The notes below the pieces were generated by a model, which ran no database searches, was not told the origin of the DNA, and saw only the letters and a program-made list of their open reading frames with translations. A stretch of DNA of 64,000 bases from Malacoraja senta (lineage: Eukaryota). Shown in pieces: positions 1,147 to 62,602 of this stretch. Position numbers and translations under genes: made by a program. Every line of letters begins with the position of its first letter. Position 1 is the stretch's first letter. The stretch spans positions 18,230,001-18,294,000 of the forward strand of contig CM075989.1 of assembly GCA_038087875.1 (NCBI GenBank). The letters run 5' to 3'.

Positions 1147-1428
1147 TTTGGGTCAACAACGATGTCCCTTTCCACACTATCCGGTGGTGAGGGCTACATT
1201 ATACTCTCTAATATAATCTGTGCTTGGTCTGCCCATATCTTCACGTTAAAGTCACACATATCTGTCACAAGATTGACGTAAGAACAAAAAGGCGCGACAG
1301 TTTCTTTAGACTGAGCCCAACATATTGAATAGGAAGGAACTGCAAATGCTAGTTTACACGGAAGATAGACACAAAATGCTGGAGCAACTCAGCGGGACAG
1401 GAAGCATCTCTCGAGAGAGAAGGAATGG

Positions 1429-1460
1429 GTGACGTTTCGGGTAGCGACCCTTCTTCAGAC
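1429..1460 (-). ncRNA. Minimal hammerhead ribozyme motif (Penelope type)
   Basis: Minus strand gt-CTGAAGA-a-GGGT cgct ACCC-GAA-ACGT-C-ac. Confidence 0.6.
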
Positions 1461-1558
1461 ATGTTGAGTTGTACGACGTTACTTGTGTGGGATTTCTTAA
1501 GTATCGCATCGTATTGCCGTGGGTACTTTGGAAGGTTCTATAAACATTGCAATAATAT

Positions 1559-1755
1559 ATATGTGAGGAAGGAACTGCAGATGCTGGTTTAAGCCAAAGA
1601 TAGACACAAAAAGCTGGAGTAACTCAGCGGGACAGGCAACATCTCTGGAGAGAAGGAATGGGTGACGTTTCGGGTCGACTTGCAACATCACCCATTCCTT
1701 CTCTCCAGAGATGCTGCCTGTCCCGCTGAGTTACTCCAGCTTTTTGTGTCTATCT
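1559..1755. mobile_element. Fold-back Penelope-derived element with 12-bp TSD
   Basis: Inverted halves atagacacaaaaagctggagtaactcagc...gctgagttactccagctttttgtgtctat; TTGCAATAATAT at 1547-1558 and 1756-1767. Confidence 0.8.
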
Positions 1756-1917
1756 TTGCAATAATATTTGTGCCCGACCCTCATGAAGCAGCTGATGTTC
1801 ATCAATCACTTACTAGATCCAATCCCCAGCCCTGACAAAGAGTTGATGTCATTGTTGGATCAGCAAACCATGAATGATGTTCCTGCACAATGCTTTTTTG
1901 TTTGGAAGGCCGGCAAC

Positions 1918-2022
1918 TTAACAGCTCAGTACTTCTCTGGCCTGGTTCAGCTGATTTTTCAATTTTGCAAGTCTTTCCCCAGTCTCTTGTGACGAGTTCC
2001 TAGTGATCTGATCCATTGCCTG
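1918..2022 (-). CDS. Candidate (alternative) terminal exon, QAMDQITRNSSQETGERLAKLKNQLNQAREVLSC*, coiled-coil-like
   Basis: Tandem NAGNAG acceptor tgtgttcag|CAG|GCA; phase 0; amphipathic helical peptide; TAA stop. The polypyrimidine tract is weak. Confidence 0.4.
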   Translation of the reverse strand, partial: QAMDQITRNSSQETGERLAKLKNQLNQAREVLSC

Positions 2023-2307
2023 CTGAACACAGATATTGCTTATGGAGATAGATGGGGTTTTTTTTCGAAAGAAAGGTAATATGTTTTCTACAGCGCAGTG
2101 GCTGAGGCTGGCAAGTAGCTCCAAGGGTTCTGATATTTATCTGGTTTCTTGCTCAAGTGAGCTTTCTTCCCAGAACGAGCATCTCATCGTTTATCTCACT
2201 CTGCGTGTCACAGCTAGAACTGCCTTCATCTGCATCCACGTACAGTCACGAGAAGGCAGACAGGCACAGGAGCTTTGGTCAATTATCTCAACATCCCTTT
2301 GGGAAGC

Positions 2308-2992
2308 TTACAACCCAGTGGTATGAATATTGACTTCTCCAACTTCAAGTAACCCTTCCCTCTCTCTCTCCATCCCTCCCCCTTCCCAATTCTCCGACCA
2401 GTCTGACTGTCCCCCTGATTACATTTTATCTCTGTATGCTTCGTGGTCACCTTCTCCTAGCTAACAATGATCCTTGATCTTCATCCCCTTTGATGTCTCA
2501 TTCTCACACCTTACCCTTCCGTATCTCTGTGTCTCGTTCTCCTCTGACTCTCAATCTACAGAAGGGTCTTGACCCGAAACGTCACCCATTGCTTCTATCA
2601 AGAGATGCTTGTTGCCTGATCAGCTGAGTTACTCCAACATTTTGTGTCTATCTTCGGTATGAATATTGGTTTTTCTAACCAAGTAATCCTGGCAGATCCC
2701 CTCTCTCTCCGTCCCTCCCTGACCCAACTAGGTTCAAAGTCATCTTATTAAGTCTCATTGTCTATAACTCATTTTCACCAAGCCCACAGTTAACAATGGC
2801 CTGTTTCCTTTTAACATCGTTGCTTTTTTGCATATCTTTCATTCATTTGTTCTATATCTCTCTATATCATCGTCTAGATCTCTCATTTCCCTTTCCCCCG
2901 ACTCTCAGTCTGAAGGTGGGTCCTTGACCCAAAATGTCACCTATTCCTTTTCTCCTGACCCGCTGAGTTACTCCAGCATTTAGTGTCTATCC
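2308..2992 (+). mobile_element. Two tandem Penelope 3'/pLTR-like units, each ending in a degenerate hammerhead motif
   Basis: ggtatgaatattg starts both units (~2319 and ~2656); motifs near 2557-2586 and 2908-2940. Confidence 0.7.
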
Positions 2993-59470: not shown

Positions 59471-60209
59471 AAACAAACAAAAATAGCCAGGCAGTGCATC
59501 AATGTATCCTCCAACGTGTTACCTTCTGCAGGTCCCCACGGTCCGATTTAAGGGGGTCAACTGAAGGTAATATTACACTTGCAGGAAATATGATTTCCAT
59601 CTACCTTACAAAGTCATTGCACTACACACATGCTGACAGGGGTATTATCTGTGGTGGGCACTCTGCAATCAGGGTCAGAAGGTCCACTGCATTGCACAGA
59701 CTTTAGAAACAATATCTTCAGTGTCCCAGACAGCAAACACTGTGGGCCGGCTTTTTAATAAAAGAGAATTCATTAGACAATACATCATAAACTGATCTCG
59801 GCGCATGCCCCACCAACTTAAACTAGGTTTAAAGGCAAACTATTGACATAAGTTCATAAGTGCATAAGTTATAGGAGCAGAATTAGGCCATTCGGCCCAT
59901 CAAGTTCACTCCGCCATTCAATGATTGCTGATCCACCTCGGCCCCATTCTCCCGCCTTCTCCCCATAGCCCCTGACACCCTGATCCACTCTCAGTAAAAA
60001 TTAAGTGGTCCTGACAAGTATTATTTCTTTTTTTAAAAGAACACACGATAGATACATGTTGGCCATCGTTCCATCAGGCAATTGTTTCTCCGATTTCATA
60101 AGTTTCGCAGATACCACGTGAACACCAAATGATCAGCTATAGTTTGATAAAACATTGCCAATAACTGATGTGGAGATTGTTTATGAGAACTGGGTATATT
60201 TAGTTTCTA

Positions 60210-60480
60210 GCGTAACTTAGCAGGGCAGGCAGCATCTCTGAAGAAGGGTTTCTGCCCGAAACGTTGCCTATCTCCTTCGCTCCATAGATGCTGCTGCACC
60301 CGCTGAGTTTCTCCAGCATTTTTGTCTCTCTTCTTTGGAGAGACTGATGTCTGAAGAAGCGTCTCGACCCGAAACATCACCCATTCCTTCTCCCCAGAGA
60401 CGCTGCCTGTCCCGCTGAGTTACTCCAGCATTTTATGCCTATCTTCGATTTAAACCAGCATCTGCAGTTCTTTCCTACAT
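60210..60480 (+). mobile_element. Composite Penelope-derived insertion with two tandem hammerhead motifs and a 13-bp flanking duplication
   Basis: TATTTAGTTTCTA at 60197-60209 and 60481-60493; motifs near 60238 and 60350. Confidence 0.7.
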
Positions 60481-60762
60481 TATTTAGTTTCTATGTACTC
60501 TGCAAAAAATGTCTCAAAATATATTTTAAATGTACTTTATTTTACACACACAATGTCCAAATGATGCACTTAATGTGATTTTTGCTGTCCCATAGCCCTT
60601 CCCTGAAAGTTAGCACGATTGTTTTGACTGTCCTGACCAAATGGACTGACGATGAAATGAAAGTCAAAGTGCAAATTATTTATTTACTCTTGGGCACCTC
60701 CTTGTGGCAACTTTCAGAGCAGAAAATGCAAGTGTTCGTTCCAAAGACATGAAAGGAATTTT

Positions 60763-60965
60763 TGTAGGAAGGAACTGCAGATGCTGGTTTAAAACGAAGA
60801 GAGACACAAAAAGCTGGAGTAACTCAGCGGGACAGGCAGCATCTCTGGAGAGAAGGAATGGGTGACGTTTCAGGTCTGAGAAAGGGTCTCGACCCGAAAC
60901 GTCACCTGTTCCTTATCTCCAGGGATGCTGTCAGACCCGCTGAGTTACTCCAGATTTTTGTGTCT
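60763..60965. mobile_element. Fold-back Penelope-derived element with 12-bp TSD
   Basis: ATGAAAGGAATT at 60749-60760 and 60966-60977. Confidence 0.75.
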
Positions 60966-61844
60966 ATGAAAGGAATTAACTATATGAATCAAATCTGTCT
61001 TTTTACTTTTTAAAGCAAAAGTTATTCAGAGTTTGGAGAATAGGAAGTGTACATTTGAAATTGGAGAGGAAATAAATGGACTGAGAAGAGAAACGCTGCT
61101 TGCTCACCCTTCTTGGGCCTTTAATAGTTTCATCTCCCTTGACCAAGTCCCCCATTGCCTTTTTACTCACCCCTTATTTCGCTTCCTCTGTCTCCTTCCA
61201 CCCATCTCCCTCCCTCGGGCGTTACTTTTCTCTACTTATCTAACATCCTTTTGTCTCCTTTTCACCTCCAGCCTTTGTCACATTCACCCGTCTGCCAATA
61301 AACCCCACCCCCACCTGTATTCATCAATAGTTCATAAGTGGTAGGAGAAGAATTAGGCCATTCGGCCCATCAAGTCTACTCCACCATTTAATCATGGCTG
61401 ATCTATCTTTCCCTCTCTAACCCCATTCTCCTCCCTGCTCCCCATAGCCCCTGACACCCGTACTAATCAAGAATCTGTCAATCTCCACCTTAAAACTATC
61501 CATTGACTTGGCCCCCACAGCCTTCTGTGGCAGTTAATTCCACATATTCACCTCCCTCTGACTAAAGAAATTCCTCCTCACCTACTTTCTAAAAGTACGT
61601 CCTATTATTCTGAGGCTATGGCCTCTGATCCTAGACTCTCCCACGAGTGAAAACATCCTCTCCACATCCAGGCCTTTCACTATTCGGTGAGTTTCAATGA
61701 GGTGCCCACTCAGCCTTCTAAACTCCAGCGAGTACAGGCCCTGTGCCTTCAAATGCTCATCATACGTTAACACAATCATTCCTTGCATCATTCTCCTCTG
61801 GACCAAACCTCCTCTGGACCCTCTCCAATGCCAGCACATCCTTC

Positions 61845-62413
61845 CACAGAAGCACAATCTGCCACAGGCAATGATGGTCCAATTCTACACGGCCATCGTA
61901 GAGTCTGTTCTCACCTTCTCCATCATGGTCTGGTTTGGCTCAGCCACCAAGCACGACACCTGGAGGCTGCAGCGAATCGTCCGATCAGCAGAGAAGATTA
62001 TTGGCTGCAACCTTCCCTCCATTGATGAACTGTACACTGCAAGGGCCAGGAAGCGAGCGGGCAAGATCATCTCTGACCCCTCTCACCCTGGCCACAAACT
62101 CTTTGAATCACTTCCCTTTGGAAGGCGACTCCAGACTGTCAAAGCTGCCACAGCCAGACATAAAAACAGTTTTTATCCACGAGTAGTAGCTCTACTCAAC
62201 AGCCAAAAATCTGTAGCCTCCCTTTGATCTGGTATTTTGTTGGTTCACATGCTTGATCAATGGTGTTTTATCATTAATGTTTTATTATTATTAATGTTTA
62301 GTGTTTTCTGAGTCATTCGTAACTGTCACTGTATGTCATGTTGTTACTTGTGGGCGGAGCACCAAGGCAAATTCCTTGTATGTGAATACTTGGCCAATAA
62401 ACTTACTTACTTA
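61845..62413 (+). mobile_element. Rex1/Babar LINE 3' fragment
   Basis: FYTAIVESVLTFSI...LQRIVRSAEKII...HPGHKLFE.LP.GRR; AATAAA plus (ctta)n tail. Confidence 0.9.
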
Positions 62414-62602
62414 CCTTCCTCAGATGTGGGGCCCCATCACTTATGTCCCATCCCCAACATTCTTTTCCAGCGTTCTCCTCCCTACTCCATTAGTCTGAAG
62501 AACGTTCCTCACCCGAAGCGTCGTCTGTCCATTCCCTCCACAGACGCTGCCTGACCGGCCGGGTTCCTCCTCCAGGGCTTTGTGTTTTGCTCAAGATCCC
62601 TG

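What the first reader, a model, noticed from the sequence alone, without database searches (positions are those of the whole stretch)
1330..62600. Dispersed family of hammerhead-ribozyme-bearing, Penelope-derived short elements (retrozyme-like)
Seen: more than 20 copies of a ~110-130 bp block containing CTGAAGA-A-GGGTC tc GACCC-GAAACGTC. Examples: 1429-1460 (-), 10649-10680 (-), 19065-19095 (+), 28163-28193 (+), 47629-47661 (+), 54996-55030 (-), 60350-60382 (+). Established: Penelope-like elements carry minimal type I hammerheads whose palindromic helix III (here ACGT) is thought to work as a dimer. Inference: this is an abundant non-autonomous, ribozyme-terminated family inside the introns of a host gene. 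Minus-strand copies would be in the pre-mRNA and could in principle cleave it after GUC. Caveats: helix I is only about 2 bp (gt/ac), there is an extra A after CUGAAGA, and many cores are mutated.
Basis: partly seen in the sequence, partly recalled or inferred. Interest (0 to 1): 0.72.

Follow-up and report, generated by a model that had tools for sequence, protein, structure and literature searches.

The report
Truncated Penelope ends carrying hammerhead motif
About 50 pieces of one repeat in this window carry a textbook minimal hammerhead-ribozyme motif, but they are likely the broken-off, dead tail ends of a Penelope-type jumping gene rather than a separate ribozyme-cut element, and no host gene around them was found.

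Summary
The repeat is real: 50 profile hits (7% of the window; 0 in 10 shuffles), matching the published minimal type I hammerhead consensus of Penelope-like elements (PLEs). The 'extra A' is a standard feature, and 2-bp helix I has precedents. Five copies run upstream through a pyrimidine-rich UTR to an ORF end that resembles the C-terminus of a Neptune-clade GIY-YIG endonuclease. Copies show PLE hallmarks: 7-15 bp target duplications, two 3' end classes about 30 nt apart, and 10 head-to-head units, 9 with the tail on one arm only. 'Ribozyme-terminated' and 'retrozyme-like' are not supported: no copy starts at the GUC cut site, about 70-100 nt follow it, and no tandem array exists. Only 5 of 28 cores are fully intact, without strand bias. 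No host exon was established. The notable point is that 10 of 27 single copies start at the upstream edge of the ribozyme, next to a TCAGTCTGA palindrome; an RT stop with cDNA snap-back or annealing there is my best guess (about 0.45). This scan noted the same pattern in two other shark-like genomes. Ordinary in kind; cleavage untested.

The parts
2299..2352 (+). ORF end (LGSLQPSGMNIDFSNFK*), inferred C-terminus of a Neptune-type GIY-YIG endonuclease
   Evidence: upstream continuation table 7; compared by eye with Fig. S2 of PMC8557442
2293..2658 (+). Long copy A: ORF end, about 205-nt pyrimidine-rich UTR, mutated hammerhead, no tail
2656..2991 (+). Long copy B: last ~10 codons, a different UTR, hammerhead block; joined head-to-tail behind copy A through 3-nt overlap (partial tandem)
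4761..5600 (-). Long copy D: degraded ORF end, UTR split by a SINE (4917-5227), hammerhead block
10424..10867 (-). Long copy E (ORF end, UTR, block lacking model 3-14) hosting a nested short copy
10594..10680 (-). Short copy starting exactly at the G before the core, inside copy E's UTR, 12-bp target duplication
54076..55455 (-). Long copy C: ORF end LPNGMNIEFSNFR*, 380-nt UTR, block split at model 63/64 by an inverted-repeat element and a SINE
54997..55028 (-). Best-preserved hammerhead motif: GU / CUGAAGA / A / helix II / GAAA-CG-U / C / AC; predicted cut after 54999
18983..19161 (+). Copy truncated within the UTR (~80 nt upstream of the core)
41696..41852 (-). Copy truncated within the UTR, with tail and internal deletions
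62453..62591 (+). Old copy truncated within the UTR
1327..1461 (-). Short copy with tail, core fully intact, starts at the core's upstream edge
9311..9405 (-). Old short copy, no tail, 8-bp target duplication
11407..11499 (-). Short copy, no tail, 11-bp target duplication (1 mismatch)
30985..31116 (+). Short copy with tail, 13-bp target duplication
33755..33886 (-). Short copy with tail, 9-bp target duplication
35225..35319 (+). Old short copy, core degraded
40333..40464 (-). Short copy with tail, weak 6-bp duplication
47629..47744 (+). Short copy with tail, core fully intact, 15-bp target duplication (1 mismatch), 5' filler of repeated TCTGAA
55519..55651 (-). Short copy with tail, weak 7-bp duplication
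1566..1762 (.). Head-to-head unit, junction at the TCGA palindrome of helix II, tail on one arm, 12-bp target duplication
4385..4518 (.). Head-to-head unit, neither arm has the tail, no clear duplication
17605..17843 (.). Head-to-head unit joined at the core's upstream edge; spacer holds CCCTCAG; tail on one arm
28053..28282 (.). Head-to-head unit joined at the core's upstream edge; arms share a derived change
31192..31560 (.). Head-to-head unit centred on the TCAG-N-CTGA palindrome; plus arm split by a 139-bp repeat fragment, tail at 31513-31560; 10-bp target duplication
43893..44113 (.). Old head-to-head unit; spacer made of pieces of the ATCAGTCT edge sequence
52204..52362 (.). Head-to-head unit with a short second arm (model 3 to 33-37), 13-bp target duplication
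53512..53673 (.). Head-to-head unit, weak 7-bp duplication
60207..60479 (.). Composite: inverted piece plus the only close head-to-tail pair of cores (113 nt apart, two different subfamilies, second core lacks the ACGT palindrome); 13-bp target duplication
60763..60967 (.). Head-to-head unit, tail on one arm, 12-bp target duplication; folds into one long hairpin (z -17.6)
3029..3106 (-). Short internal-start copy lying tail-to-tail with copy B; further weak fragments at 10086-10116, 13657-13705, 34724-34764, 35804-35878, 43022-43064, 46602-46650, 56407-56523, 57205-57246

Best explanation
These are individually inserted, 5'-truncated copies of the end of a Penelope-like retrotransposon (likely Neptune clade) that carry its minimal hammerhead motif, and they were likely made by the parent's own reverse transcriptase and are likely dead once inserted. 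Shown in the sequence: target duplications, variable upstream extension to an ORF end, two 3' end classes about 30 nt apart, head-to-head units with the tail on one arm, ends that do not coincide with the GUC cut site. Inferred by analogy with the Anolis element PAc (PMC11167929): the endonuclease nicks AT-rich DNA, on one or both strands, and RT starts inside a read-through RNA at either of two sites about 65-70 or 100 nt downstream of the cut site. Inferred here (about 0.45): RT often stops at the upstream edge of the hammerhead, where the new cDNA ends in the TCAG-N-CTGA palindrome; the end is joined to the target by microhomology (short single copies) or pairs with itself or with a second cDNA primed from the other strand (head-to-head units). 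The ribozyme was likely kept by selection in the source elements, where it would need a dimer or the element's protein to cut; cleavage did not set the ends of the inserted copies.
For: ORF-end remnants upstream of 5 copies. In two DNA-like runs the loose end before 2299 reads in frame as KLEEQHLIFR (345 and 430 contigs, agreement about 0.6); from its last E through the window's N this gives 8 of 17 identities without gaps to Neptune-1_Ac and 9 of 17 to Neptune1_Nv, while Poseidon has a 4-residue shorter E-to-N spacing (by eye). Motif matches the published consensus. Target duplications: 6 of 10 edge-starting singles at 8-15 bp, 5 of 10 head-to-head units at 10-13 bp (chance of score 8 or more is 4.4%, of 12 or more 0.35%). 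3' ends: 28 of 50 at model 81-101, 19 of 50 at 118-133. Tail on exactly one arm in 9 of 10 units, P about 0.01, as drawn for PLEs in PMC8557442 and PMC3846280. Short and long copies intermix in a tree of 37 copies. Core conserved across subfamilies (5/132 vs 98/664 mismatches, p 2e-4) but not clearly within one (2/76 vs 29/637; CpG 18/95). 10 of 27 single units start at model 3-7 (p 4e-7 even against a 100-position null). Junction spacers at 17605-17843 and 43893-44113 hold sequence from upstream of the edge.
Against: No RT or full GIY-YIG domain of a PLE lies in the window, and no tool scored the ORF end as GIY-YIG (blank; the representative search never ran). The clade call rests on 17 residues compared by eye, 7 of them from a consensus of loose ends. 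4 of 10 edge-starting singles and 5 of 10 head-to-head units have weak or no duplication. The sharp 5' pile-up is also what a short master element or a transcription start would give. All 5 long copies stop within the last ~8-22 codons of the ORF, which plain random truncation does not predict. The cDNA hairpin is weak (-0.2 to -4.6 kcal/mol, and often not the palindrome itself). Arms are each other's close relatives in only about 5-6 of 9 measurable pairs. One arm (52321) ends 1-5 nt past the cut site. Tree supports are low (0.78 for the main clade).
Confidence: 0.8

Rival explanations
1. A separate non-autonomous short element (SINE-like) of about 135 nt, or a pLTR-only element, is the source of the short copies and borrows the PLE protein.
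For: Sharp 5' boundary in 10 of 27 singles; summed contig depth on the block is several times that on the ORF end and about 70 times that on copy A's UTR end (not a copy number); the 5 long copies all stop near the ORF end.
Against: Short and UTR-bearing copies share subfamily variants and intermix; most short copies lack the TCA just upstream, so they could not regenerate an initiator; no tRNA head.
Confidence: 0.12
2. The 5' pile-up marks the start of the template RNA: TCAGTC is an initiator, RT runs off the capped end, often one base short.
For: TCAGTC at the edge in UTR-bearing copies and in the loose-end consensus of all four runs fits the initiator consensus (recalled); PLE pLTRs hold internal promoters (PMC2377424, PMC3846280); many singles begin one base after the A.
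Against: Junction spacers of two head-to-head units hold 3-7 bases from upstream of that A; in D. virilis the start lies over 100 nt upstream of the ribozyme; the downstream promoter element is out of register; no raw RNA reads were available.
Confidence: 0.3
3. The boundary is a 3' splice site (YAG after a pyrimidine tract) as in D. virilis Penelope, and splicing intermediates set the 5' end.
For: YAG directly precedes helix I in 5 of 8 UTR-bearing copies, at the 79th-98th percentile of acceptor scores; the D. virilis intron ends at helix I.
Against: Most short copies keep the G of the AG, and no shared upstream exon lies between the target duplication and the block.
Confidence: 0.1
4. A true non-LTR retrozyme: tandem units cut by the ribozyme, circularised and re-inserted.
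For: One head-to-tail pair of cores 113 nt apart; a few 'goes back' joints in contigs; retrozymes derive from pLTRs and occur in one sampled chondrichthyan (bioRxiv 10.64898/2026.07.22.740005).
Against: No tandem array of the unit among 19 rows; minimal rather than canonical hammerhead; ends are fixed, not circularly permuted; the pair's two units are from different subfamilies.
Confidence: 0.04
5. Minus-strand copies cut a host pre-mRNA and so regulate or burden a gene.
For: 4 of the 5 fully intact motifs are on the minus strand; one candidate minus-strand micro-exon.
Against: Host gene not established; intact cores 6 of 13 minus vs 7 of 15 plus; the ribozyme-compatible fold lies 7-19 kcal/mol above the minimum in all 5 intact copies; 2 of the 4 sit in long hairpins; published monomers do not cut, and PAc's needs its protein.
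Confidence: 0.05

Closest known systems
5'-truncated insertion units of endonuclease-positive Penelope-like elements, Neptune clade (PMC8557442, PMC3846280)
   Same: pLTR with hammerhead after the ORF, heavy 5' truncation, partial tandems, adjacent inverted copy with palindromic junction, optional 30-40 nt tail on one end, short target duplications, E..I.R.....P.G.N end of the endonuclease
   Different: Units here are reduced to 100-700 bp; 5' ends pile up at the ribozyme's upstream edge; no RT in the window; very high density (7% of the window)
Minimal hammerheads of metazoan PLEs (PMC4209133)
   Same: CUGANGA plus one unpaired base, G10.1-C11.1, GAAA-CG-U-H with no loop 3, mostly solitary copies, some opposite-strand pairs
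   Different: Helix I 2 bp and helix II 4-5 bp, shorter than most listed vertebrate examples; no cartilaginous fish in the searched supplement file (file 1 not searched)
PAc, Poseidon of Anolis (PMC11167929)
   Same: Two 3' ends that define a tail; ends unrelated to the ribozyme cut site; AT-rich targets (duplications 64% AT vs 54%, p 0.02)
   Different: Different clade; in PAc the ORF starts in helix II, whereas no open start is evident after this core
Metazoan non-LTR retrozymes (PMC7229834; bioRxiv 10.64898/2026.07.22.740005)
   Same: Type I hammerhead, non-coding, PLE ancestry
   Different: Retrozymes are tandem units of 150-450 bp with canonical ribozymes and circular RNA; here copies are single or inverted

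Membership tests
PLE minimal type I hammerhead | CUGANGA, unpaired base, G10.1-C11.1, GAAA, UH triplet | tested here: met
   against the consensus; 13 of 28 cores intact
PLE minimal type I hammerhead | Palindromic 15.2-16.2 positions (dimer helix III) | tested here: met
   ACGT is the majority; the CpG decays
PLE minimal type I hammerhead | Helix I and helix II supported by covariation | tested here: inconclusive
   86.8% of cells pair; C-G to U-A in 3 of 27 at the top of helix II; 14-38 of 500 shuffles reach the observed values
PLE minimal type I hammerhead | Self-cleavage after GUC as dimer or with protein | not testable with these tools
   only contigs were served
Rfam hammerhead families | Covariance-model hit | tested here: not met
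   no hammerhead family among 24 matches at E<=1
EN+ Penelope-like element | RT plus GIY-YIG endonuclease ORF | tested here: inconclusive
   only the last ~27 residues seen; resemblance by eye; searches blank
EN+ Penelope-like element | Hammerhead in the terminal repeat downstream of the ORF | tested here: met
   5 copies, 205-380 nt after the stop
EN+ Penelope-like element | Optional 30-40 nt tail, on one end of inverted units | tested here: met
   two end classes; 9 of 10 units
EN+ Penelope-like element | Partial tandem and inverted arrangements with target duplications | tested here: met
Neptune clade | C-terminal endonuclease with Neptune-type E-to-N spacing; linker zinc finger; RT phylogeny | tested here: inconclusive
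   spacing and C-terminal position fit; linker and RT not available
Non-LTR retrozyme | Tandem units each with a complete hammerhead | tested here: not met
   one mixed pair with a broken palindrome
Non-LTR retrozyme | Unit boundaries or permutation consistent with cut-and-circle RNA | tested here: not met
   0 of 50 hits start at model 26-41
Non-LTR retrozyme | Abundant circular RNA | not testable with these tools
   no RNA holder on record
tRNA-derived SINE | tRNA-like head | tested here: not met
   ARAGORN found nothing in the window; the block's head is the hammerhead

The most novel reading that the evidence does not exclude
The upstream edge of the hammerhead is a built-in stop for the Penelope RT: a conserved TCAGTCTGA palindrome (which also reads as an initiator and a splice acceptor) lets two cDNAs, primed on opposite target strands from the two RT start sites, pair up. 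This one element would explain the solo 135-bp copies, the head-to-head units and the one-arm tail, and would have filled a cartilaginous-fish genome with on the order of 10^5 ribozyme motifs without any cleavage.
Probability: 0.35. Interest if true: 0.55.

Novelty: new member of a known kind. Interest (0 to 1): 0.3.

Why it matters
The kind is known: PLE ends with minimal hammerheads are described as massively widespread in animals. This family adds a very abundant example in what looks like a skate or ray (recalled resemblance; no call names the organism), a group not found in my searches for such ribozymes. Its use is mechanistic. How PLEs form inverted ends and one-sided tails is open, and what their ribozyme does is open. 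Thousands of short, target-duplication-bounded insertions are natural records of where RT starts and stops, and they show in this window that the cut site sets neither end, in line with the PAc result. If a few intact motifs do cut with help, intron orientation bias could be tested with great power.

Tried and rejected
No whole genome is held, so nothing genome-wide was annotated. Exact-pattern scans of viral, metagenome and prokaryote collections found nothing, as expected for an animal repeat. Rfam gave no hammerhead hit; its 24 matches are all below gathering scores. Protein searches with the short ORF end were blank; the 1.84-billion representative search did not run, so tool confirmation of the GIY-YIG call is open. 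No RNA holder listed on record; X15 and X17 are only guessed RNA, and contigs cannot show starts, ends or level, so the higher block-to-ORF depth ratio in them is not used. Covariation is not above the relatedness noise. Single copies do not fold better than shuffles (7 sequences, z -1.3 to +2.3); the minimum-energy folds often pair the purine-rich core with the pyrimidine run at model 39-52, which I note but could not show to be conserved. Promoter-element matches downstream of the edge were considered from recalled consensus and dropped: the D. virilis element RGACGTGY is out of register. Host exons: Pfam and two splice-site scans gave no recognisable gene; exons under 38 codons or without Pfam domains would be missed. 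Luense et al. 2017 (RNA Biol) is not held; I saw only its citation and a summary in PMC6765202, and it or Repbase/Dfam may already list this family. The bioRxiv supplements, which may list the chondrichthyan families, were not seen.

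
Full report
1. Observation. The core pattern matches 16 times at up to 3 mismatches with 0 expected; blastn with one copy gives 41 pieces; a profile from 6 copies gives 50 hits and none in 10 shuffles, 27 minus and 23 plus, covering 7.0% of the window. All seven example sites are real. 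Positions below are positions in that 135-column profile: G3 T4 are the 5' strand of helix I, C5-A11 the CUGAAGA box, A12 the unpaired base, 13-24 helix II, G25-A28 the GAAA box, C29 G30 T31 C32 the palindrome and triplet, A33 C34 the 3' strand of helix I. The surroundings are a repeat-rich vertebrate sequence with CR1-type and other LINEs and a SINE; that it is a skate or ray is my recollection of these repeats, not a tool result. Eight coded organisms hold part of the stretch.

2. The motif. It fits the published consensus for metazoan PLE minimal hammerheads, NNN CUGANGAH G...C GAAAN palindrome NUH NNN (PMC4209133: main text parts 1-2 of 4 read; supplement file 2 part 2). Rfam has no hit. 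Of 28 hits that cover the core, 13 keep all core bases (7 of 15 plus, 6 of 13 minus) and 5 also keep helices I-III. Non-CpG core columns mismatch in 14 of 328 cells against 343 of 2633 downstream; with end effects and base type controlled, 5 of 132 against 98 of 664 (p 2e-4). Within one subfamily of 10 hits the gap is not clear (2 of 76 against 29 of 637) while CpGs decay (18 of 95). I read this as selection on source elements and neutral decay of copies; the within-subfamily sample is small. Covariation is not above noise: 14-38 of 500 shuffles reach four of the five measures and 160 the fifth. In all 5 intact copies the ribozyme-compatible monomer fold is 7-19 kcal/mol above the minimum and the first pair of helix II has probability 0.10 or less; this ignores dimer and tertiary contacts.

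3. What the block belongs to. Five copies continue upstream through 205-380 nt of pyrimidine-rich sequence, of at least four types, to a conserved reading-frame end such as LGSLQPSGMNIDFSNFK* at 2299-2352. Laying four public contig sets on 2150-2720 at 80% likeness placed 58,332, 62,784, 4,958 and 3,911 contigs; the loose end before 2299 has the same 30-base consensus in X1 and X2 and reads in frame as KLEEQHLIFR. Counting from its last E to the window's N, 8 of 17 residues equal Neptune-1_Ac and 9 of 17 Neptune1_Nv without gaps; Poseidon and Penelope have shorter spacing, and Naiads have the same spacing but an N-terminal domain, whereas this one is followed by a stop (Fig. S2 of PMC8557442; compared by eye). 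No search scored this short piece. Summed depth is 12.1 and 19.6 million on the block, 3.35 million on the ORF end and 33 on the unique flank in X1; the tool warns that this is no copy number, so I take only an order of 10^5 copies. X2, another organism, holds the same flank and junction with 8 differences, so copy A predates their split.

4. Anatomy of insertions. The 50 hits make 10 head-to-head units (21 hits, plus one tail piece cut off by a later insertion) and 27 single units (one split in two). 3' ends fall in two groups, 28 hits at 81-101 and 19 at 118-133, with 3 elsewhere; each group lies 12-18 nt after a CCAGCAT motif (79-85 and 109-115). This matches the optional 30-40 nt PLE tail, which in PAc lies between two internal RT start sites (PMC11167929, parts 1-2 of 4 read). 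In 9 of 10 head-to-head units one arm has the tail and in 1 neither (P about 0.01 if independent); three older arms are scored from alignments reaching 120-124. Target duplications of 10-13 bp flank 5 of 10 units as wholes, so each is one event; 6 of 10 edge-starting singles have 8-15 bp duplications. The 12 duplications tabulated are 64% AT against 54% (p 0.02). Inverted units with palindromic junctions and a one-sided tail are described for PLEs (passages of PMC8557442 and PMC3846280).

5. Ends and the ribozyme. No hit starts at positions 26-41, around the cut after 32; one arm (52321) ends at 33-37, blurred by its duplication. So the family is not ribozyme-terminated. 29 of 50 hits start at 3-7, where the profile itself starts; reading upstream, 7 continue into a UTR, 12 are arms of composites and 10 are singles with unrelated flank. 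Ten of 27 singles in a 5-nt zone is far beyond a uniform null (p 6e-12 over 320 positions, 4e-7 over 100). The zone is the palindrome TCAG-T-CTGA. Six of 10 head-to-head junctions lie at it on at least one arm and the others at self-complementary spots inside the block. In two units the spacer holds 3-7 bases matching UTR ends, and a third junction (31290) can be read that way or as one substitution. This suggests the template ran past the edge, which favours an RT stop with snap-back or pairing of two cDNAs over a strict RNA start. Arms are each other's near-closest relatives in about 5-6 of 9 measurable pairs and clearly not in 2-3, so both one-template and two-template events may occur. These steps are inferred from few junctions.

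6. Non-autonomous family or retrozyme? Short copies are closest to UTR-bearing copies 41807, 10509 and 2908 and intermix with them in a tree of 37 of the 50 hits (those with 70 or more aligned columns; low supports). Tandem Repeats Finder lists no array of the unit. The one close head-to-tail pair (60238 and 60351) joins two subfamilies inside one duplication-bounded insertion, and its second core has lost the palindrome. Retrozymes are defined as tandem units with circular RNA (passages of PMC7229834; bioRxiv 10.64898/2026.07.22.740005, parts 1-3 of 5, where 1 of 9 tested dimers cleaved). Membership fails on tandem structure and boundaries; the likeness is shared ancestry. An oddity left open: all 5 long copies stop within the last 8-22 or so codons, which may mark a second stop zone or a pLTR-only template.

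7. Host gene and cleavage. Pfam on all 435 non-repeat frames gave RT fragments, a LINE-derived ALKBH8_N match (origin recalled) and one sub-threshold DUF. One minus-strand micro-exon candidate is borderline. Intact cores show no strand bias. Head-to-head units put the two motifs on opposite strands and fold as long hairpins (z -17.6). Published minimal monomers do not cut, dimers cut weakly, and PAc's motif needs its protein and is dispensable for insertion. Pre-mRNA cleavage is therefore unlikely to matter (0.05).

8. Novelty. Seven literature searches found the general phenomenon and no description of this family or of the 5' pile-up; Luense et al. 2017, Repbase and Dfam could not be read. 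Two earlier notes of this scan on other shark-like genomes report the same pattern (sequence and place look-ups were empty); I saw them after recording my own reading and count them as no support. Verdict: a new member of a known kind, interest 0.3; the end statistics are the part worth following.

Noticed in passing
window 21154-25043 (-): Near-intact CR1-type LINE: 314-aa ORF1 with GDSL/SGNH esterase domain and an open 1012-aa endonuclease-RT ORF2.
   Followed up: partly
window 14813-16856 (+): Second LINE with RT, broken by a frameshift and a stop.
   Followed up: no
window-wide, e.g. 34760-35082 (-): SINE of about 300 bp with a tRNA-like head and short tandem tail; 28 pieces, 18 of 200 bp or more. 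Recalled likeness to elasmobranch HE1/V-SINE types, untested.
   Followed up: no
window 44544-45146: 603-bp self-inverted element (85% arm identity), source of the spurious miRNA matches.
   Followed up: no
window 54438-54967: Element with about 130-bp terminal inverted repeats; with a SINE it splits long copy C.
   Followed up: no
window 58007-58731 and 62603-63372: About 750-bp inverted duplicate, 84% identical.
   Followed up: no
window 1741-1810 and 4501-4567: The flanks to the right of two head-to-head units are homologous (86% over 70 bp including the arm end): local duplication, 3' transduction or repeated use of one target.
   Followed up: no
window 43280-43325 (-): Candidate micro-exon with a strong acceptor and two donors 12 nt apart (34 or 46 nt); score reached by 1 of 30 controls.
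   Followed up: partly
window 2299, 2656, 5597, 10867, 55452: All five long copies end within the last 8-22 or so codons of the ORF; possible second stop zone or pLTR boundary.
   Followed up: partly
window 10424-10867 and 55406-55651: Copies sit inside or next to older copies of the same family (10681 in a UTR; 55651 about 65 bp upstream of copy C), hinting at self-targeting.
   Followed up: no
window 37996-38308: Tandem array, 47-bp unit, about 7 copies.
   Followed up: no
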